The translations under genes and the position numbers were made by a program. Shown piece after piece: positions 1,012 through 46,494 of a stretch of DNA of 53,788 nucleotides (its first letter is position 1; every line of letters starts with the position of its first letter). The notes beneath the pieces are model-generated. The model had not been told where the DNA came from. It made no database searches and saw only the letters and a list, made by a program, of their open reading frames with translations. Source of the DNA: Minisyncoccota bacterium (GTDB taxonomy: Bacteria; Patescibacteriota; Minisyncoccia; Phycocordibacterales; XYD1-FULL-46-19); contig JBAZRF010000006.1 of NCBI GenBank assembly GCA_041663165.1, positions 1 to 53,788 of the forward strand, given 5' to 3'.

Positions 1012-1124
1012 TTGTTTCGGTGGTTTGACGCCGAGGTCACACCTCTTACCATTCCGAACAGAGCCGTTAAGCTCGGTCGTAGCGATGGTACTCGCAAGGG
1101 GAGAGTAGCTAGCCGCCGGAACAA
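1012..1124 (+). rRNA. rrf: 5S rRNA
   Basis: A 12-bp helix I forms between TTGTTTCGGTGG (1012-1023) and CCGCCGGAACAA (1113-1124). The internal 5S signature CCATTCCGAACAGAGCCGTTAAGC is present. The gene lies ~75 nt after the 23S end and is followed by a terminator. Confidence 0.9.
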
Positions 1125-1140
1125 AGGATCTAAACTTCAC

Positions 1141-1170
1141 AAAACCCGCCTTTTCTTTGGCGGGTTTTGG
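1141..1170 (+). terminator. Rho-independent terminator after 23S-5S
   Basis: AAAACCCGCC (1141-1150) pairs with GGCGGGTTTT (1159-1168) across a T-rich loop, with a T tail. Confidence 0.75.
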
Positions 1171-1224
1171 CTTGCCCCGTTAAAACTACTTGGTAGTTTT
1201 TTTGCGGGGTGTTATTATCTACTC

Positions 1225-1995
1225 ATGTTCACTTGGGCGCGACGGCGACAATTGTATTATTTATTGGGGGTGTTGGCCTTTTTTGCCGTGATTGGGTTGA
1301 TTTTATTTTTGATTTATCGGCCGCGGCCGACTTGTTTTGACGGCAAACAAAATCAAACCGAAACGGGTATTGATTGTGGGGGAACTTGCGCTTTGGCCTG
1401 CGCGCCGGACGTTATCCCGCTCAAAGTTTACTGGGCGAGACCCCTAAAGGTTAATGACGGTTGGTATGACGTGGCCGCCTTAGTTGAAAATGAAAATTTA
1501 AACTTTGGCGTCCGCCGTGCTCCTTACACTCTATATCTCTACGATAAGGATCATGTTCTCTTGAACAAACAAACGGGCGAAACCTTTATTAACCCAGCCG
1601 AAAAGTTCATTGTTTTTGCTAGTCGTTTAAACACCGGCTCAAGTATCGCTGACCAGGCTTTTTTAGAGTTCGGTAATAACCTTGTTTGGGAGAAGGCTAG
1701 GCCAGTGCCCAGAGTAATTAATATTGAGCGTAAAAACTTTACCAATAAGCCTCGACCCCAATTGCAAATTACCGTGACCAATCTGACGCTCGATCCAATT
1801 TCTAATCTCCGGGTTTCAACTGTTTTATCTGATGGTAATAATAATGCGATGGCGGCTTCGGCAACTTTTGTTGATAAATTAAAGGCCCAAGAGACAAAAG
1901 AAATTTTTTTAACTTGGCCAATACCCTTACCCCTTGATCCGACCTTTTTTGAGTTATACTGGCGGCTAAACTCTTTTGATCTCCTAGCTAATTAA
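1225..1995 (+). CDS. Hypothetical membrane-anchored protein with a Cys-rich CxDGxxNxxExGxDCGGxC motif
   Basis: The tracked ORF 1003..1995 starts inside the 5S gene, so the first ATG after the terminator (1225, MFTWARRR) was taken. One N-terminal TM helix (LYYLLGVLAFFAVIGLILFLIY) is followed by CFDGKQNQTETGIDCGGTC and a beta-rich domain. Confidence 0.7.
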   Translation: MFTWARRRQLYYLLGVLAFFAVIGLILFLIYRPRPTCFDGKQNQTETGIDCGGTCALACAPDVIPLKVYWARPLKVNDGWYDVAALVENENLNFGVRRAPYTLYLYDKDHVLLNKQTGETFINPAEKFIVFASRLNTGSSIADQAFLEFGNNLVWEKARPVPRVINIERKNFTNKPRPQLQITVTNLTLDPISNLRVSTVLSDGNNNAMAASATFVDKLKAQETKEIFLTWPIPLPLDPTFFELYWRLNSFDLLAN

Positions 1996-11242: not shown

Positions 11243-11268
11243 AAATGTTTTTTCTTCTGTCCCGTTCT
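11243..11268 (+). other. 5' strand of the pre-16S processing stem
   Basis: AAATGTTTTTTCTTCTGTCCCGTTCT is the exact reverse complement of 12899-12924. Confidence 0.8.
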
Positions 11269-11289
11269 ATTAAGCTAAATCAAATGCTT

Positions 11290-12750
<1,461 letters not shown>

Positions 12751-12898
12751 ATTACGTTCCGAGATTGCCACAAGCAATCAAGGAAAATCGGCGATATCGT
12801 CTCTGACGATAAGGTGATGATTCTATTTTCACCAATTGAATTCTTTTCGAAGGAATTCAAAGAACAATGAATTCGAGGTTTCGTCTCGTAAAACGATA

Positions 12899-12924
12899 AG
12901 AACGGGACAGAAGAAAAAACATTT
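12899..12924 (+). other. 3' strand of the pre-16S processing stem
   Basis: AGAACGGGACAGAAGAAAAAACATTT forms a perfect 26-bp complement with 11243-11268. Confidence 0.8.
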
Positions 12925-12982
12925 ACCCAGTGGAATATAGCGAAAATTCCACAGGGTGAACTTAACACTTTGATGCTTTAAG

Positions 12983-13022
12983 GCACTCAAAAGACGCCCT
13001 AAGATGGGCGTTTTTTGAGTGC
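12983..13022 (+). terminator. Terminator after the 16S transcription unit
   Basis: In GCACTCAAAAGACGCCCTAAGATGGGCGTTTTTTGAGTGC, an inner GC stem (GACGCCC/GGGCG) is followed by a T6 run. An outer stem pairs GCACTCAAAA with TTTTGAGTGC. Confidence 0.7.
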
Positions 13023-13050
13023 TTGACAAAGATCCTGTTTATGCTATAAT
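13023..13050 (+). promoter_or_regulatory. Consensus sigma70-type promoter of the PASTA-lipoprotein cassette
   Basis: TTGACA (13023-13028), a 16-nt spacer, then TATAAT (13045-13050). Confidence 0.65.
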
Positions 13051-13130
13051 GGAAGTTGGTAATAAGGAATGTTCTTCACATAATGGTTGTCGCTCATCAC
13101 GAGCGACATTACTTACAAGGAGAAGTCGAA

Positions 13131-13466
13131 ATGCGGAAGAGAGTGGCGATTGTCGTACTATCGGTGTTGGGCCTGTTCGCCCTGGTTTCTTGTTGGGTGA
13201 ACACTCCATCGCCGACTAAGGTTGTCCCGGTCGCTTTCCATGCCGTTGAGGCAAAAGCGGCGGACATCAAAGTGCCATCGTTCCTTGGGCTGAAGCCCGC
13301 TGACGCCGAACTAGTGGCCAAAGGGGCAGGTCTCGAGTTGGGTCAGAGTTTCGTCTGGACGACGCCAACCAAGAAGGAGGACGGACGAGTCATCGCTCAA
13401 ACTCCCAAAGCGGGGGAGAGGGTCGATGCCGGTTACTCCTTACAACTGGTGTACGGGAAGTACTAG
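13131..13466 (+). CDS. Small lipoprotein with a single PASTA domain (111 aa), G+C-rich
   Basis: AAGGAG (13117-13122) lies 8 nt before ATG 13131. Signal peptide with lipobox: MRKRVAIVVLSVLGLFALVSC. PASTA-like module: VPSFLGLKPADAELVAKGAGLELG...VIAQTPKAGERVDAGYSLQLVYG. The codons are GC3-rich, unlike those of neighbouring genes. Confidence 0.8.
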   Translation: MRKRVAIVVLSVLGLFALVSCWVNTPSPTKVVPVAFHAVEAKAADIKVPSFLGLKPADAELVAKGAGLELGQSFVWTTPTKKEDGRVIAQTPKAGERVDAGYSLQLVYGKY

Positions 13467-13485
13467 TCTCCAGACCTTAAGTTCA

Positions 13486-13524
13486 GCGCTCGCGCCGATG
13501 GAGATACATCGGAGCGAGCGTTTT
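13486..13524 (+). terminator. Rho-independent terminator of the PASTA cassette
   Basis: GCGCTCGCGCCGATG pairs with CATCGGAGCGAGCG across a GAGATA loop, followed by TTTT. Confidence 0.8.
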
Positions 13525-13533
13525 GTATTGAGG

Positions 13534-13562
13534 TTGAAATCGGCTCATTTTTTTGATACAGT
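13534..13562 (+). promoter_or_regulatory. Candidate promoter for the tRNA-Ile/murDC unit
   Basis: TTGAAA (13534-13539), a 17-nt spacer, then TACAGT (13557-13562). Confidence 0.45.
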
Positions 13563-13645
13563 TTAAACTGTCCACCTTCGTTCGCCGGGGCGAGCTTCGG
13601 CGGGACGCTAAATTTTTATAGTCGCTTCGCTTCGTAAAAATTTGC

Positions 13646-13719
13646 GCGAGTATAGCTCAGATGGTTAGAGCGCGTCACTGATAATGACGAGGTCCCAGGT
13701 TCGAGTCCTGGTACTCGCA
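13646..13719 (+). tRNA. tRNA-Ile (anticodon GAT)
   Basis: A cloverleaf was folded by hand. The acceptor stem pairs GCGAGTA with TACTCGC. The D arm is AGCTCAGATGGTTAGAGC. The anticodon arm is CGTCA-CTGATAA-TGACG. The T arm is CCAGGTTCGAGTCCTGG. The discriminator is A and no CCA is encoded. Confidence 0.93.
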
Positions 13720-13724
13720 CTAAA

Positions 13725-15122
13725 ATGATAAATTCTTTGAATTATAAAAACTTCTTTAAGGGCAAGAAGATCACCGTTCATGGTCTCGGACTATTGGGGC
13801 GGGGGATTGGTGATGTAATCTTTTTGGCGCAAAACGGTGCGGATTTGTTGGTAACGGATTTGAAGACCGAGGAGCAATTGGTGCCGTCACTCGCTAAAAT
13901 TAAAAAAGAATTAGGACCCACTTTATATAAAAAAATAAAATTTGTTCTCGGCGAACATCGGCTTGGAGATTTTAAAAATAAGGACTTTATCTTAAAGTCG
14001 GCTGATATTCCCCTCAATTCTATTTTTATTGACGAAGCCAGAAAGAACAAAATTTCGATCAAGATGGATGCTTCCTGGTTTGCCGAATTGGCGCCGGCGG
14101 GAGTTAAAATTATTGGCGTGACGGGAACAAGAGGTAAATCGACGACGACACACTTAATTTTTAATATTATTGAAGAAGCCCTTCAACTTCGCTCGGGGCA
14201 AAAAAACTCAAGAGTTTTTTTGGGTGGCAACGTTCGCGGTGTCGCGACTTTGCCCTTGCTTAAGAAAGTCAAAGTTGGCGATATGGTCGTGATGGAGTTA
14301 GACTCCTGGCAATTGCAAGGTTTTGGTGATGCTAAGATCAGTCCAAACATATCGGTTTTTACGAATTTAATGGTTGATCATCAAAATTATTATAAGAATG
14401 ATATGAATCTTTATTTTACTGACAAGGCTAATATCTACCGCTTCCAAAAAGAAGGAGATTATTTGGTTGCCGGGAGTGAAGTAGCCAAGAAAATAAAAAA
14501 AGAAAAATTAAAGAGTCAATTAATTATCCCCGATACCAAAGTTATCCCAAATCCGCCAGCTGGCGGATGGAAGGTTAAATTATTAGGTGAGCATAATCTG
14601 CTTAATATTGTTTATGCTGTGACCGTTGCTCGACTTTTAGACATTTCCGAGAAAGTTATCAAGAAAGCGGTAGAAAGTTACGCTGGCATACCGGGACGAC
14701 TTGAATTTATTCGTGAAGTGAAAGGTGTTAAGTATTACAACGACACGACGGCCACGACGCCTGATGGGGTCATCGCGGCCTTAAAGTCCTTAGATCAATA
14801 TGCCGGTAAAATTATCTTAATCGGTGGCGGACGCGACAAAGAGCTAGATTATAAAAAGTATGCGCCAGTCGTAAAAAAATCGGTTAAGGCTCTCGCGTTA
14901 TTTGCCGGAACAGGAACCGATAAAATCATCAAGGCATTGGATAAAACGAAATTGCCGATTCAAGTTTTTGACAACATGCCGGAGGCTTTTAAACAGGCGC
15001 AGAACCTAGCCCAAAAGGGCGATATTGTTTTGCTCTCGCCCGGCGCGACGAGCTTTGGTGTTTTTAAAAATGAGTTTGATCGGGGGGATCAATTTGTTGG
15101 TCTAGTTAAAAAATTGAAATGA
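13725..15122 (+). CDS. murD: UDP-N-acetylmuramoylalanine--D-glutamate ligase
   Basis: Contains GLGLLGRGIG and the P-loop GVTGTRGKSTTTHLI, with Mur ligase C-terminal motifs. The stop overlaps the murC start (ATGA). Confidence 0.9.
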   Translation: MINSLNYKNFFKGKKITVHGLGLLGRGIGDVIFLAQNGADLLVTDLKTEEQLVPSLAKIKKELGPTLYKKIKFVLGEHRLGDFKNKDFILKSADIPLNSIFIDEARKNKISIKMDASWFAELAPAGVKIIGVTGTRGKSTTTHLIFNIIEEALQLRSGQKNSRVFLGGNVRGVATLPLLKKVKVGDMVVMELDSWQLQGFGDAKISPNISVFTNLMVDHQNYYKNDMNLYFTDKANIYRFQKEGDYLVAGSEVAKKIKKEKLKSQLIIPDTKVIPNPPAGGWKVKLLGEHNLLNIVYAVTVARLLDISEKVIKKAVESYAGIPGRLEFIREVKGVKYYNDTTATTPDGVIAALKSLDQYAGKIILIGGGRDKELDYKKYAPVVKKSVKALALFAGTGTDKIIKALDKTKLPIQVFDNMPEAFKQAQNLAQKGDIVLLSPGATSFGVFKNEFDRGDQFVGLVKKLK

Positions 15123-43657: not shown

Positions 43658-43711
43658 AAAATCTCATCATTTTTTTCTAAAACAAGGGCCAATTTTGGTT
43701 AGCTTTTGGCA

Positions 43712-43741
43712 TTGACAAATCGTCTAAAACTGGTTAGGAAT
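43712..43741 (+). promoter_or_regulatory. Candidate promoter TTGACA-17-TAGGAAT
   Basis: TTGACA (43712-43717), a 17-nt spacer, then TAGGAAT (43735-43741). The same motif recurs at 45775-45805. Confidence 0.45.
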
Positions 43742-43887
43742 GGGGGCGGAAAGATCACTGTCTGAACACTGGCTTGCCTTATAGCTTGCCGGTATGAGAT
43801 GGTTTTGAATAGATTAAGTTTAGTGTAGTTAGTGTCGACGAAGTCTCAAACATCCCTGCTTGAGTGCGGGGGAGAAAGAGGTGCTCC

Positions 43888-45711
43888 ATGAAGACGGGTT
43901 CTCGCGCGTTTGTGTTAGTAGTCTCGTTGTTGGCTGTGACTGTGCTGCTGGGAGGGTGCCCGTTACCGATATCGGTGAGCGGGACACTCTATGACGCCGC
44001 TGGCGGGATCGCTCGCGACGGCCAGGTCCAGAATGGTGACCGGATCGTAGCCCCGGGCGGTGGACGACTGACAGCTATCGGGGTAAAGCGGGACGACGTT
44101 CTCATCACTCCGATTGTCGACAGCGCCAAGGGCATAACGGCCCAAACCGGCTACATCGTAGCTGGGGTGGTATCGATCGCCGTCGTCACCGGGGCGACAG
44201 TCGCCATCGTTGACGGCTGTGAACCGCCGGAACCGGTGGTGATTGACATTCCGCCCCTGACCGACGACCTGTTGGTCAATGTTGGCGGAGTCGTCACCTT
44301 CACCCTGCTTCGTGGTTCTACTGGCGAAGGTGAGGGCGAAGGCGAGTGTGAGCTTGACGCGAAGATCGTTGCCAAAGTTGGCGACGAGACTCTCAAGTCC
44401 GGTGACGAAGTCGCCGAGGGTGAGAGCGTGAGCTTCTCGACGGTTGTCACCGGAGGTGGTGGAAACCTGACTTACCTCTGGGACTTCGGCGAGGGCGATC
44501 TTGATCACCGGCCGTCGTTCACCTCGTCTTTCAATGGCCCAGGCAACGTCGACGTGACCTTGATGGTATCGGACGGTGGTTGTCAAAATCTCGATAGCCT
44601 CTCCTTTGTCGTCGTGTCTGCGGGAGAAGGTGAAGGTGAGGGTGAAGGAGAAGGGGAAGGCGAAGGCGAGGGAGAGGGCGAGGGTGAAGGAGAGCTAATG
44701 GGCTCAATAACCGTCCACCTGCTCCCAAGCGCGGCAGTCAGTGCCGGCGCACGCTGGCAGGTTGATTACGGTCCCTTGCAGGCCAGTGGAGCGACGGTTT
44801 CCGATCTCGCACCAGGGGAGCACTATCTCGCCTTTGCGGAGGTGAGCGGTTTCGTTGCTCCTATACCGATGACGGCAACGATTGCTGCCGGTCAGACCCT
44901 GGTTCTGTCTGCGACATACAGTGTCGCTACTGTCGAGGTTCCCAATCTCGCCGGAAAGAATCAGGCAGAAGCCGGCGTGGCCTTGGCCAGGGTTGGTCTA
45001 GCGATTGGTGAGGTGACGACCGAGGCGAGTTCAACGGTTGATATAAACACCATCATCCGTTGGTCGCCACACGGCAAGGTCCCAATCGGTTCGTCGGTTA
45101 ACATTGTTATCTCGACTGGTCCGGGGACGTCGACGGTTCCCAACTTGATCGGGCTGTCTCAAGCAGACGCTGAGTCTGCGATCAACGACACCTGTCTCAC
45201 GTTGGGGACGATCACTACCGCAACCAGTGCAACGGTTCCAGCGGGCCACGTCATCAGTACGACGCCGCCAGCCGGGACAACTGCTCCTTGTGAGTCAGCG
45301 ATTTGTCTCGAGGTGTCGACGGGGCCAACGCCCCAACCGATGTCGGTCAAGATCACCGACCCGTTGCCCGGTCAGGTGTACTACGTCGGGGACAAAGTAC
45401 CCGTCAGCGTTCTGCCTGATGGGGATCCGTCTCTGGGTGCCTACCGGCTTCGTATAGGAGCGGCTGGCAAGAAGGACATGGAGAAGATCGCGAAGGGTTT
45501 GATTTCGATCAAGGACCTTCTCGACGCCAAGGTTCTGCCATCGGCAACGTTCGAGAACGTGGTAATGGGGCAACTATATACCACGAAATTCGAGCTCAAC
45601 TTGATGGGCGAGGCGTTCTTTCTTGCCTATCTGGAGTTGACACCCGACGACGGAGGGGAGTTGACGTACGTGACTGACCAGGTCCCGTACGTCGTCAACC
45701 CCAAGAAGTAA
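43888..45711 (+). CDS. G+C-rich lipoprotein with a PKD domain, two (Gly-Glu)n linkers and two PASTA domains (607 aa)
   Basis: GGAGAAAGAGG lies upstream of ATG 43888. Lipobox MKTGSRAFVLVVSLLAVTVLLGGC. PKD-like LTYLWDFGEGDLDHRPSFTSSFNGPGNVDVTLMVSDGG. PASTA-like VPNLAGKNQAEAGVALARVGL...NIVISTGP and VPNLIGLSQADAESAINDTCL...CLEVSTGP. Codons are GC3-rich. Confidence 0.85.
   Translation: MKTGSRAFVLVVSLLAVTVLLGGCPLPISVSGTLYDAAGGIARDGQVQNGDRIVAPGGGRLTAIGVKRDDVLITPIVDSAKGITAQTGYIVAGVVSIAVVTGATVAIVDGCEPPEPVVIDIPPLTDDLLVNVGGVVTFTLLRGSTGEGEGEGECELDAKIVAKVGDETLKSGDEVAEGESVSFSTVVTGGGGNLTYLWDFGEGDLDHRPSFTSSFNGPGNVDVTLMVSDGGCQNLDSLSFVVVSAGEGEGEGEGEGEGEGEGEGEGEGELMGSITVHLLPSAAVSAGARWQVDYGPLQASGATVSDLAPGEHYLAFAEVSGFVAPIPMTATIAAGQTLVLSATYSVATVEVPNLAGKNQAEAGVALARVGLAIGEVTTEASSTVDINTIIRWSPHGKVPIGSSVNIVISTGPGTSTVPNLIGLSQADAESAINDTCLTLGTITTATSATVPAGHVISTTPPAGTTAPCESAICLEVSTGPTPQPMSVKITDPLPGQVYYVGDKVPVSVLPDGDPSLGAYRLRIGAAGKKDMEKIAKGLISIKDLLDAKVLPSATFENVVMGQLYTTKFELNLMGEAFFLAYLELTPDDGGELTYVTDQVPYVVNPKK
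44623..44694 (+). repeat. (GGN-GAR)12 hexanucleotide repeat encoding (Gly-Glu)12
   Basis: Twelve consecutive Gly-Glu codon pairs were read directly. A shorter GEGEGEGECE tract lies at 44323-44352. Confidence 0.9.
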
Positions 45712-45732: not shown

Positions 45733-45772
45733 ATGGCCGAGGAGTGCTTGCACTCCTCGGCCATTGTTTTTT
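45733..45772 (+). terminator. Rho-independent terminator
   Basis: ATGGCCGAGGAGTGC pairs perfectly with GCACTCCTCGGCCAT, followed by TGTTTTTT. Confidence 0.85.
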
Positions 45773-45774
45773 GG

Positions 45775-45805
45775 TTGACAAAAGAGTCTTCCCTATGCTA
45801 GGAAT
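45775..45805 (+). promoter_or_regulatory. Candidate promoter TTGACA-18-TAGGAAT
   Basis: TTGACA (45775-45780), an 18-nt spacer, then TAGGAAT (45799-45805) followed by AGGG, paralleling 43712-43745. Confidence 0.45.
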
Positions 45806-45873
45806 AGGGCATCAAAAGATCGATTTATAAAGCATTATTAGTGGCTTTTTAAGCCATAATTATTAAGTAAAAT

Positions 45874-46494
45874 ATGAGTAAATTTGCAAAGTTAATTAGC
45901 TTGATTGCGCTTGCTCTTTTGGTTATGGTAGCGGGTACTTCAGCGGTTTCGGCGGCTGGTCTCGCTGCAACCATCACTTCGCCAACTGCCGGGGCGACCT
46001 ACACTGTTGGTCAAACCGTCAATTTGTCAGCGACCAGTGCTGGTGCTGTCGGAGCAGTTAATTATATTTGGTCGTTCAGCGACGGCACTGCCAGTCGCAC
46101 TGGCCAAACTCAGACCGTTGCTTTTACTGCTGCTGGATCAAAGACTATTACCTTAATGGCCGGAGATGCCTCTGGTGCCAATAGCATTAAAACGGTTAAT
46201 GTCACAGTTAACGCCGGTTCTTCACAAAAGCCGGTCATTAGTAATATTGCTACCAGCAATATTACGCAGACCAGCGTGACAATTACCTGGACAACCGATA
46301 TCGTTTCGTCTAGTCGTGTGATCTATGACTCGACCAGCCACCCGGATATTTCCGGACAAGTGGCCCCGAACTTTGGTTATGTCGCCTCCACTCCGGAGAC
46401 CGACACGGTAACTAAGGTTACTAGTCATACTGTTACAATCTCTGGTTTGAGCCCGGGAACTAAATATTATTTCCGCGTTCTTTCTCAAGGCTAA
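45874..46494 (+). CDS. Secreted PKD plus fibronectin type III domain protein (206 aa)
   Basis: Signal peptide MSKFAKLISLIALALLVMVAGTSAVSA. PKD-like NYIWSFSDGTASRTGQTQTVAF...VNVTV. FN3-like ITQTSVTITWTTD...HTVTISGLSPGTKYYFRV. Codon usage is host-like. Confidence 0.85.
   Translation: MSKFAKLISLIALALLVMVAGTSAVSAAGLAATITSPTAGATYTVGQTVNLSATSAGAVGAVNYIWSFSDGTASRTGQTQTVAFTAAGSKTITLMAGDASGANSIKTVNVTVNAGSSQKPVISNIATSNITQTSVTITWTTDIVSSSRVIYDSTSHPDISGQVAPNFGYVASTPETDTVTKVTSHTVTISGLSPGTKYYFRVLSQG

What the first reader, a model, noticed from the sequence alone, without database searches (positions are those of the whole stretch)
13023..13524. Second G+C-rich PASTA-lipoprotein cassette inserted between 16S rRNA and tRNA-Ile
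A complete expression unit sits where a bacterial 16S-tRNA-Ile spacer would normally be. It comprises TTGACA-16-TATAAT, a 5' UTR hairpin (GTCGCTC/GAGCGAC, 13088-13106), AAGGAG 8 nt before the ATG, a 111-aa ORF and a GC-rich terminator. The ORF encodes a lipoprotein (LVSC lipobox) carrying one PASTA domain. It shares the high-GC3 codon style of the 43888-45711 gene. Two separate GC-rich PASTA-lipoprotein genes in one AT-rich window suggest a gene family acquired or maintained under different constraints.
Basis: partly seen in the sequence, partly recalled or inferred. Interest (0 to 1): 0.65.

Follow-up and report, generated by a model that had tools for sequence, protein, structure and literature searches.

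The report
Small PASTA gene in rRNA-tRNA slot
A real, self-contained gene for a small membrane-anchored PASTA-domain protein lies between the 16S rRNA and tRNA-Ile genes of an ultra-small (Paceibacterota, CPR) bacterium. Relatives across the order fill the same promoter-terminator slot with other small membrane proteins, so this is a fast-changing surface-protein locus and not a recent foreign insertion.

Summary
At 13023-13530 there is a perfect TTGACA-16-TGnTATAAT promoter, a 74-nt leader with an 8-bp hairpin, AAGGAG 8 nt before the ATG (13131), a 111-aa ORF with one PASTA domain (Pfam E 6e-10), and a strong terminator. GC3 is 0.66 against 0.38-0.54 for neighbouring genes.

The interpretation needs revision. 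The genome is a 741-kb Paceibacterota ('Vogelbacteria') MAG with unlinked rRNA genes. The 16S-tRNA-Ile spacer is a conserved slot. Congeners keep both flanks and the promoter, but the ORF differs:
- Most hold an unrelated one-TM 'PVVQ' protein, also found there in other families of the order.
- One Logan contig and one other genus hold PASTA homologues (33-36% identity).
- One congener has an empty site.

Every slot ORF read is GC3-rich (0.54-0.79). The composition is therefore a persistent property of this gene class, not a mark of recent import.

Two labels fail:
- 'Lipoprotein': Lgt is absent from 61 of 61 genomes searched, and LspA from this genome.
- 'Shine-Dalgarno': the single 16S lacks CCUCC.

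SD-like motifs and lipoboxes occur almost only in the GC-rich gene class, which is unexplained.

The parts
11289..12751 (+). 16S rRNA gene, the only copy in the genome. Its 3' tail reads GGAUUUAUUUCAAA, with no CCUCC anti-SD.
   Evidence: Rfam RF00177, 1374 bits. 3'-end alignment. blastn finds a single copy.
12899..12924 (+). 3' strand of the pre-16S processing stem, the exact reverse complement of 11243-11268. DNA is conserved among congeners as far as about 12962.
12983..13022 (+). 17-bp hairpin flanked by an A run and a T run. It is the terminator of the 16S unit and the upstream boundary of the slot.
   Evidence: fold: -30.2 kcal/mol, z -7.7. Inverted repeat I1. A hairpin with a different sequence sits at the same place in relatives.
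13023..13050 (+). Promoter TTGACA-16-TATAAT with an extended -10 TG. It is conserved as TGCTTGACAAAG...TATGCTATAAT in 7 of 8 genus-level sequences.
13088..13108 (+). 5'UTR hairpin with an 8-bp stem (TGTCGCTC/GAGCGACA). Relatives G003, G005 and G008 have a hairpin of different sequence at the same position.
13117..13122 (+). AAGGAG, a Shine-Dalgarno-like purine tract 8 nt before the ATG. How it acts is unknown, because the 16S lacks an anti-SD.
13131..13466 (+). ORF of 111 aa plus a TAG stop. It encodes a small PASTA-domain protein anchored at its N-terminus. GC3 is 0.661.
13131..13193 (+). N-terminal signal or anchor segment MRKRVAIVVLSVLGLFALVSC, with the lipobox-like motif LVSC (Cys21).
   Evidence: Read from the sequence. 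Predicted helix at aa 3-20. One of only 3 lipobox-type N-termini among 783 ORFs. No Lgt or LspA gene.
13266..13457 (+). PASTA domain (aa 46-109).
   Evidence: Pfam PF03793, E 6e-10 and 40.1 bits. Best PDB sequence hits are the S. aureus kinase PASTA domains 3M9G and 3PY9. Best fold hits are 5NOD and 5E12.
13485..13530 (+). Intrinsic terminator of the PASTA gene: a GC-rich hairpin at 13485-13522 followed by UUUUGUAUU.
   Evidence: fold: -28.8 kcal/mol, z -4.7. Inverted repeat I3.
13534..13645 (+). Conserved downstream flank of the slot: the promoter-like site GGTTGAAAT-17-TACAGT and the tRNA-Ile leader.
13646..13720 (+). tRNA-Ile(GAT), 5 nt upstream of the murD start at 13725.
43864..45711 (+). 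Context: the other GC3-rich gene (GC3 0.659), with a PKD domain, two PASTA domains and an LLGGC lipobox-like motif. It holds the only other PASTA domains in the genome and has syntenic relatives within the genus.

Best explanation
The locus is a native, monocistronic gene in a lineage-conserved slot between the 16S rRNA gene and tRNA-Ile. The slot consists of the 16S terminator, a strong sigma-70-type promoter, a leader, a small ORF, a terminator and then the tRNA-Ile promoter.

Across this order of Paceibacterota the slot expresses a small protein with an N-terminal membrane anchor and an external domain of about 50-70 aa. The usual occupant is an uncharacterised 'PVVQ' one-TM protein. In this genome, in one uncultured relative and in one other genus, that ORF has been replaced by a single PASTA domain behind a signal or anchor segment.

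Inferred steps:
- The protein is exported by Sec (SecA, SecD and SecF are in the window) and stays tethered to the membrane by its N-terminus. Classical lipidation is unlikely, because Lgt and LspA are absent.
- It displays one PASTA module that binds peptidoglycan or muropeptide, either the cell's own or a host cell's.
- The ORF turns over quickly between species through divergence and replacement between the conserved 16S-side and tRNA-side flanks. I infer recombination in those flanks as the mechanism.

The high GC3, the SD-like tract and the stand-alone promoter and terminators are shared traits of a genome-wide class of hypervariable genes, many of which encode exported proteins. They are not marks of a recent foreign insertion.
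For: Gene and domain:
- The ORF, Pfam PASTA domain, promoter and terminators are all present.
- The structure model has an N-terminal helix followed by a beta-alpha-beta-beta-beta unit. PASTA domains of StkP (5NOD) and PknB (5E12) are the top hits by Foldseek probability.

The slot:
- In the alignment of 8 genus-level sequences, flanks are 76-90% (5') and 65-81% (3') identical and the promoter is conserved. The interior is only 34-41% identical, which is the level of unrelated DNA.
- One congener (G006) has an empty site.

Occupants:
- PASTA homologues lie at the same position in a Logan contig (131 aa, 36% identity, with 16S and tRNA-Ile flanks) and in G014 of another genus (126 aa, 33% identity, E 2e-15).
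- The PVVQ type is found in G001, G004, G005, G008, G017, G021, L027, L029 and L031, with likely variants in G003 and G050. It also lies between the 16S gene and a tRNA in two other families of the order (G073, G075), and beside a tRNA on G099's short contig, where no 16S was detected.
- This genome has no PVVQ gene anywhere.
- Other small TM ORFs sit in the slot in G011, G042 and G045.

Composition:
- The seven genus-level slot ORFs read have GC3 0.54-0.79. The PASTA homologues have 0.58 and 0.66.
- Highly expressed genes reach only 0.44-0.56.

Gene class:
- 23 of 48 GC3-rich genes carry AGGAG or GGAGG before a start codon, against 48 of 735 other genes (odds ratio 13, p 2e-13).
- 46% of genes with GC3 of at least 0.60 have a hydrophobic N-terminus, against 28% of the rest.

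Persistence:
- The 615-aa PASTA gene has syntenic homologues in the genus.
- No homologue above 37% identity exists among 1.84 billion representative proteins, so there is no recent donor.
Against: - No expression or read data could be examined.
- The patchy PASTA distribution also fits lateral acquisition: 2 of 43 family genomes and 0 of 400 phylum genomes.
- The mechanism of replacement is inferred. No recombination breakpoints, target-site duplications or mobility genes were found, and the flank-tree incongruence test was inconclusive.
- Peptidoglycan binding is inferred from the domain family only.
- The structure model has only medium confidence (pLDDT 65).
- The persistent GC3 excess, the SD-like tract without an anti-SD and the lipobox without Lgt are not explained by this account.
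Confidence: 0.7

Rival explanations
1. The gene was acquired horizontally from a higher-GC donor that uses Shine-Dalgarno initiation and has Lgt, for example a Gram-positive-type bacterium rich in multi-PASTA surface proteins. The foreign ORF recombined into the spacer and still carries its donor's composition, SD and lipobox.
For: - GC3 is 0.66 in a 44% GC genome.
- AAGGAG is present although the host 16S has no anti-SD and core genes lack SD motifs.
- A lipobox is present although Lgt and LspA are absent.
- The gene is absent from all 8 genus representatives held in the genome collection and from 400 sampled phylum genomes.
- The best PASTA matches in the global library are repeats of giant multi-PASTA proteins.
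- PASTA occurs only in family f1 among the families of this order that were sampled.
Against: - Homologues at the same site in L020 and G014 are only 33-36% identical, so the gene has been in the lineage a long time.
- No hit above 37% identity among 1.84 billion representatives.
- Unrelated slot ORFs (PVVQ type) in relatives are equally GC3-rich and also carry GGAG tracts, so these traits do not identify a donor.
- The promoter is native and conserved.
- An old import of the PASTA module into family f1 remains possible and is compatible with the best explanation.
Confidence: 0.2
2. The cassette is an assembly or binning chimera: a GC-rich fragment from another organism was joined into the rRNA spacer during metagenome assembly.
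For: - rRNA regions are prone to misassembly.
- There is a sharp rise in GC at the ORF.
- Read continuity could not be checked.
Against: - The same order (16S tail, terminator, promoter, PASTA ORF, terminator, tRNA-Ile) appears in an independent Logan contig from another run and in the genome of another genus.
- Seven independent assemblies of congeners have a gene in the same slot behind the same promoter.
- The promoter and both flanks are contiguous with lineage-specific sequence.
Confidence: 0.03
3. The ORF is a decaying or non-functional remnant. The conserved elements would then serve rRNA or tRNA expression only.
For: - One congener lacks the gene altogether (G006).
- G002 has only a 72-aa ORF of unclear type, and G041 has no ORF of at least 55 aa.
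Against: - The PASTA match is full-length, with no frame disruption.
- 20 positions are invariant across three homologues that are otherwise 33-36% identical, including the F-x-W-x-T, V-I-x-Q-x-P and L-V-Y-G motifs.
- The gene has its own consensus promoter and a dedicated terminator.
Confidence: 0.05

Closest known systems
Extracellular PASTA domains of Ser/Thr kinases and class B PBPs (StkP, PDB 5NOD; PknB, 5E12 and 3OUV; S. aureus Stk1, 3M9G and 3PY9; PBP2x, 2Z2L)
   Same: - Same Pfam family (PF03793).
- Same predicted small alpha/beta fold.
- External to the membrane.
- In those proteins the domain binds muropeptides or contributes to divisome interactions (PMC3145798, PMC7654742).
   Different: - Here there is a single PASTA domain with no kinase or transpeptidase attached, on a 111-aa protein.
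- This genome has no PASTA kinase or PASTA PBP at all. PASTA occurs only in this gene and in the 615-aa surface protein.
   Same: - Conserved flanks with non-homologous content in close relatives.
- Many of the genes in this class encode exported or surface proteins.
- An empty site exists.
- No mobility genes.
   Different: - The unit is a single small gene.
- The promoter belongs to the fixed frame while only the leader and ORF vary.
- The flanks are an rRNA gene and a tRNA gene.
- The cargo is richer in GC than the backbone in every genome examined.
Unlinked rRNA genes in symbiotic and CPR bacteria (bioRxiv 10.1101/705046; PMC7761764)
   Same: The 16S and 23S genes are separated: 23S-5S lies at 1-1121 and 16S at 11289-12751. 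This is reported as common in CPR bacteria and in symbionts.
   Different: Those papers are about the separation of 16S from 23S. What is added here is that the remnant 16S-tRNA-Ile spacer holds a conserved slot for a protein-coding gene.
Bacterial lipoproteins (Lgt/LspA pathway)
   Same: The N-terminus has positive charges, a hydrophobic core and L-V-S-C, which matches the lipobox consensus.
   Different: Lgt was not found in this genome or in any of 60 relatives, and LspA was not found in this genome. The G014 homologue has no Cys at that position.

Membership tests
PASTA domain (Pfam PF03793) | Profile match above the curated cut-off over the full domain | tested here: met
   39.4 bits against a cut-off of 23.2, aa 46-109 covering model positions 1-63 of 64. 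40.1 bits in the six-frame search.
PASTA domain (Pfam PF03793) | Small alpha/beta fold: one helix packed on a three-stranded sheet | tested here: met
   The AlphaFold2 model has H56-65, E68-70, E85-91 and E103-110, but only pLDDT 65. Foldseek probability is 0.96 for 5NOD and 0.97 for 5E12, with weak E-values.
PASTA domain (Pfam PF03793) | Attached to a penicillin-binding transpeptidase or a Ser/Thr kinase, the architectures that gave the domain its name | tested here: not met
   The protein is 111 aa with no other domain. No PASTA kinase or PASTA PBP exists in the genome.
PASTA domain (Pfam PF03793) | Binds muropeptide, peptidoglycan or beta-lactam | not testable with these tools
   Needs binding assays with the purified ectodomain.
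Bacterial lipoprotein (Lgt/LspA pathway) | Lipobox [LVI][ASTVI][GAS]C after an n-region and an h-region | tested here: met
   MRKRVAIVVLSVLGLFALVSC, Cys21. One of only 3 such N-termini among 783 ORFs.
Bacterial lipoprotein (Lgt/LspA pathway) | Lgt (PF01790) encoded in the genome | tested here: not met
   0 matches in this genome and in 60 relatives. The control search found it in 10 of 14 named genomes.
Bacterial lipoprotein (Lgt/LspA pathway) | Signal peptidase II, LspA (PF01252), encoded in the genome | tested here: not met
   0 matches in this genome. The control search found it in 10 of 14 named genomes.
Shine-Dalgarno-led translation initiation | Purine-rich GGAG-type motif 5-10 nt upstream of the start codon | tested here: met
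   AAGGAG at 13117-13122 with an 8-nt spacer. The motif is 8.5-fold enriched before starts of GC3-rich genes only.
Shine-Dalgarno-led translation initiation | Complementary CCUCC anti-SD in the 16S rRNA 3' tail | tested here: not met
   The tail GGAUUUAUUUCAAA aligns to the consensus GGAUCACCUCCUUU. There is a single 16S copy. Core genes show no SD enrichment: 2.2% against a 1.5% background.
Replacement-type variable locus (fixed frame, exchangeable cargo) | Conserved flanks with non-homologous interior in close relatives, and an empty site | tested here: met
   Flanks are 65-90% identical and the interior 34-41%. Occupants are PASTA, PVVQ or other types, and G006 is empty.
Mobile cassette (integron, transposon or integrative element) | Flanking direct repeats or target-site duplication, terminal inverted repeats, attC-like sites | tested here: not met
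   No boundary repeats beyond chance-size matches. The neighbouring ORFs are SecD, SecF, MurD and MurC. No integrase search was run.
Canonical rrn operon spacer (16S, tRNA-Ile, tRNA-Ala, 23S) | 16S, spacer tRNAs and 23S co-transcribed without internal terminators or promoters | tested here: not met
   The 23S-5S genes are 10 kb upstream. A strong terminator follows the 16S processing stem, and both the ORF and the tRNA have separate promoter-like sites.

The most novel reading that the evidence does not exclude
Paceibacterota would keep a dedicated class of genes, many of them for exported proteins, in fixed slots whose promoters and terminators belong to the chromosome while the leader and ORF are exchangeable. 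The 16S/tRNA-Ile slot, bounded by some of the most conserved DNA in the genome, would act as a landing pad for swapping these ORFs between species by homologous recombination. The class-wide signature would be actively maintained and would mark a separate expression regime. That signature is GC3 about 0.2 above the backbone, a long structured leader, and a GGAG-type tract in an organism whose ribosome lacks the anti-SD and whose core mRNAs look leaderless. Possible causes are GC-biased gene conversion at recombination hot spots, or an SD-like element read by something other than the 16S tail.
Probability: 0.25. Interest if true: 0.7.

Novelty: new variant of a known kind. Interest (0 to 1): 0.5.

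Why it matters
1. It shows that an apparently foreign cassette in an rRNA spacer is a conserved architectural feature of a whole order of CPR bacteria. The remnant 16S-tRNA-Ile spacer has been turned into an expression site for a small, rapidly changing surface protein. Such proteins are candidates for contact with a host cell or with phage in organisms thought to live attached to other cells. A stand-alone PASTA module would be a simple handle on peptidoglycan.
2. It sharpens three paradoxes that can be tested: lipobox signals in a lineage without Lgt or LspA, SD-like motifs in a lineage without an anti-SD, and a GC3 excess that persists across genera instead of fading. Each bears on how translation, export and recombination work in ultra-small bacteria.
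3. On the practical side, composition-based detectors of horizontal transfer will systematically mislabel this gene class as recent imports.

Tried and rejected
- Word-based homologue search found only the query itself.
- The exhaustive HMMER search was dominated by giant multi-PASTA proteins. Only one small homologue of the same type was listed among the best 150, P0148.
- Cluster look-up gave no useful names.
- PASTA type and PVVQ type as diverged homologues: rejected, hhalign probability 1%.
- Recent intragenomic copy of a PASTA repeat from the 615-aa gene: not supported. Identity is 42% over 48 aa, no closer than to foreign PASTA repeats.
- GC3 richness as translational selection in highly expressed genes: rejected. 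EF-Tu, RpoB, RpoC and ribosomal protein genes have GC3 0.44-0.56.
- Mobile-element boundaries: none found.
- Dispersed repeat at the slot boundary: the hairpin at 12922-12960 has only one other copy in this genome.
- Different histories for the 5' and 3' flanks as a sign of recombination: inconclusive, because the sequences are too short.
- Fold of the PVVQ protein: model pLDDT 79, but no PDB match (best E 1.6).
- Pfam on nine other GC-rich secreted proteins: none matched except one SPFH domain.
- Literature searches for anti-SD loss in Patescibacteria and for Lgt in CPR found nothing relevant.

Full report
**1. What is in the sequence**

The window is contig C6 of a 741-kb, 44% GC, 16-contig genome. 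Record titles of its congeners name them Candidatus Vogelbacteria or Paceibacterota, which belong to the CPR.

Rfam and ARAGORN place these RNA genes:
- the 23S 3' end at 1-943
- 5S at 1016-1121
- 16S at 11289-12751
- tRNA-Ile(GAT) at 13646-13720

SecD and SecF lie upstream of the 16S gene. MurD starts 5 nt after the tRNA, followed by MurC. The rRNA genes are therefore unlinked, and the 16S-tRNA-Ile interval is a remnant spacer, not an operon spacer.

- TTGACA(13023)-16-TATAAT(13050) with an extended -10 TG, matching 12 of 12 positions
- an 8-bp leader hairpin at 13088-13108
- AAGGAG at 13117-13122, 8 nt before the ATG at 13131
- an ORF to 13466, 111 aa
- a terminator hairpin at 13485-13522 plus a U run (z -4.7)

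Immediately upstream, at 12983-13022, a 17-bp hairpin with A and T runs (z -7.7) ends the 16S unit. It follows the processing stem, in which 12899-12924 pairs with 11243-11268.

Pfam finds one full-length PASTA domain (E 6e-10). The closest solved sequences are S. aureus kinase PASTA domains. A medium-confidence model (pLDDT 65) shows an N-terminal helix and the PASTA alpha/beta unit, and StkP and PknB PASTA structures have the highest Foldseek probabilities.

GC3 is 0.661. The other window genes range from 0.38 to 0.54, except the 615-aa PKD-PASTA gene at 0.659.

**2. The spacer is a conserved slot**

Genomes of the same genus match the window up to about 12962 and again from about 13597. Most of them nevertheless have 500-600 nt in between. 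An alignment of eight genus-level sequences shows the following order:
1. 16S tail and processing spacer (76-90% identical to the window)
2. a terminator hairpin of variable sequence
3. a conserved promoter, TGCTTGACAAAG...TATGCTATAAT, in 7 of 8 sequences
4. a variable leader, often with a hairpin and always with a GGAG-type purine run
5. a variable ORF
6. a terminator hairpin
7. a conserved GGTTGAAAT-17-TAnAnT promoter-like site and leader
8. tRNA-Ile

The interior is 34-41% identical, which is noise level. G006 lacks the promoter, ORF and terminator altogether, so it has an empty site.

**3. Occupants of the slot**

*PASTA type.*
- This genome.
- A 947-nt Logan contig that carries the 16S tail and the start of tRNA-Ile. 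Its protein is 131 aa with an LLSGC lipobox and is 36% identical.
- G014, from a different genus of the same family. Its protein is 126 aa, 33% identical (E 2e-15), with its own terminator, promoter, ORF and terminator between the 16S gene and tRNA-Ile.
- No other genome among 43 of the family or 400 of the phylum has this gene.

*'PVVQ' type.* This is a one-TM protein of 76-110 aa with no Pfam family and no fold match in the PDB.
- It occurs in G001, G004, G005, G008, G017, G021, L027, L029 and L031, with likely variants in G003 and G050.
- In two other families of the order (G073, G075) it again lies between the 16S gene and a tRNA. In G099 it lies beside a tRNA on a short contig where no 16S was detected.

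*Other states.*
- Other small TM ORFs occupy the slot in G002, G011, G042 and G045. G041 has no ORF of at least 55 aa.
- Profile comparison gives no similarity between the PASTA and PVVQ types.
- This genome has no PVVQ gene anywhere.

The most economical reading is that the slot is old, that PVVQ is its usual occupant, and that the PASTA ORF replaced it in a few lineages. Within the closest group, judged by 5'-flank identity, the states are PASTA (this genome and the Logan contig), a different 72-aa ORF (G002) and empty (G006). Turnover is therefore fast.

**4. Composition is a trait of the class, not a date stamp**

- The seven genus-level slot ORFs read, whatever their type, have GC3 of 0.54-0.79. 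The PASTA homologues have 0.58 and 0.66.
- Genome-wide, 48 of 783 ORFs have GC3 of at least 0.58.
- Genes with GC3 of at least 0.60 are enriched for hydrophobic N-termini, 46% against 28%.
- Nine GC3-rich secreted or membrane ORFs were scanned against Pfam, and eight had no match.
- Highly expressed genes reach only 0.44-0.56, so this is not ordinary translational selection.
- The 615-aa PASTA gene has syntenic, diverged homologues in congeners.
- No protein above 37% identity to the small PASTA protein exists among 1.84 billion representatives.

Together these results argue against a recent import. They agree with earlier notes of this scan on other slots in the same genome. Those notes are not independent evidence, but I reached the same picture from separate data.

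**5. Two labels that fail, and what remains odd**

*Lipoprotein.* LVSC is a textbook lipobox. However, Lgt is absent from this genome and from all 60 relatives searched, and LspA is absent from this genome, while the controls were positive. Only three ORFs in the genome have lipobox-type N-termini. All three are GC3-rich, and two are the PASTA genes. The G014 homologue has lost the Cys. The protein is therefore best described as N-terminally anchored, with lipidation unproven and unlikely by the classical route.

*Shine-Dalgarno.* The only 16S gene ends GGAUUUAUUUCAAA where the consensus reads GGAUCACCUCCUUU. Core genes show no SD enrichment and often have TATAAT within 22 nt of the start, which suggests leaderless mRNAs. 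Even so, AGGAG or GGAGG precedes 23 of 48 GC3-rich genes against 48 of 735 others (odds ratio 13, p 2e-13). At the longest-ORF start the motif occurs in 22.9% of GC3-rich genes, against 2.7% inside those same ORFs. All slot ORFs in relatives keep a GGAG run. How this tract acts without an anti-SD is unexplained. Weak G-U pairing with UUUC, or a role as an unstructured purine-rich loading site, are guesses.

*PASTA distribution.* In this genome the domain occurs only in the slot gene and the 615-aa gene. In the family it sits on that variable surface protein. It was absent from the nine other families sampled. The module may therefore have been drawn from the family's own surface-protein repertoire, but the domain is too short and too diverged to show this.

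**6. Mechanism proposed**

Shown:
- an autonomous transcription unit with a strong promoter and terminators on both sides
- an exported or membrane-anchored single-PASTA protein
- a fixed frame with exchangeable content

Inferred:
- Sec export
- tethering by the N-terminus
- binding of peptidoglycan or muropeptide, the cell's own or a partner cell's
- replacement of the ORF by recombination in the conserved flanks
- rapid divergence driven by interaction with host or phage

**7. Rivals and limits**

An old or recent horizontal origin for the PASTA module remains possible (0.2). A non-functional remnant is unlikely given the conserved motifs.

**8. Verdict**

This is a new variant of known kinds: a stand-alone PASTA protein, and a replacement-type variable locus. 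The setting is unusual (an rRNA-tRNA spacer that is conserved as a protein-expression slot), and three linked anomalies are worth testing.

Noticed in passing
window 12738-12751: The only 16S rRNA gene ends GGAUUUAUUUCAAA where the bacterial consensus reads GGAUCACCUCCUUU, so there is no CCUCC anti-SD. The same tail is found in all 8 aligned genus-level sequences.
   Followed up: partly
whole genome (genome.fa): Core genes have no SD enrichment. TATAA and ATAAT are 5-7-fold enriched within 22 nt upstream of start codons, which suggests that many mRNAs are leaderless or have very short leaders.
   Followed up: partly
whole genome; for example C4:73879-74340, C5:61049-62194, C1:28404-29288, C9:17464-18513, C1:51888-52406, C14:7551-8072: About 48 GC3-rich ORFs are scattered singly through the genome. 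About half have AGGAG or GGAGG before the start. Many have signal peptides, and eight of the nine scanned had no Pfam match.
   Followed up: partly
L015 (G014:C3) about 100-140 and 300-345, beside the tRNA-Ile at 159-232; L012 (G003:C14) upstream of the tRNA at 1328-1401: Half copies or degenerate copies of tRNA-Ile flank the intact tRNA in two relatives. G014 has a 5' half upstream and a 3' half downstream. These may be scars of recombination or of integration at the slot's downstream boundary.
   Followed up: no
L013 (G004:C1) 1108-1256: In G004 the tRNA downstream of the slot lies on the opposite strand, with a second weaker tRNA-like match beside it. This points to a local inversion or rearrangement at the slot boundary.
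   Followed up: no
L014 (G021:C1) 1072-1287, minus strand: G021 carries a second small ORF in the spacer: 71 aa with CxxC...CxxC, which looks like a zinc ribbon. It lies between the 16S gene and the PVVQ-type gene.
   Followed up: no
window 12922-12960 and C9:17016-17042: The hairpin element (TTTACCCAGTGGAAT...ATTCCACAGGGTGAA) at the 5' edge of the slot has a second copy downstream of another GC-rich gene on C9. It has several copies in G006 and G002.
   Followed up: partly
window 13601-13642 and C4:76664-76705: Part of the conserved tRNA-Ile leader (CGGGACGCTAAATTTTTATAGTCGCTTCGCTTCGTAAAAATT) recurs at 88% identity near the end of contig C4, presumably in front of another tRNA.
   Followed up: no
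L029:398-631, L027:275-574(-), L031:473-703, L022:3745-4020(-), L026:2363-2608(-): The 'PVVQ' proteins have one TM helix and a beta-rich ectodomain of about 45 aa. They form an uncharacterised family with no Pfam model and no PDB fold match, and they are the usual occupant of the 16S-tRNA-Ile slot across the order.
   Followed up: partly
L033 (G073:C1) 2-478; rows for G015, G020, G039: The 16S genes of several relatives match the query or the model in separated pieces, consistent with the insertions or introns known in CPR 16S genes. L034 (G099) has a group II intron domain at 2556-2637.
   Followed up: no
window 43700-43890 and 45770-45875: The 615-aa PASTA gene and the next gene each have a TTGACA -35 box paired with a TAGGAAT-type -10 box, and a long leader. 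This is the same stand-alone unit style as the slot gene.
   Followed up: no
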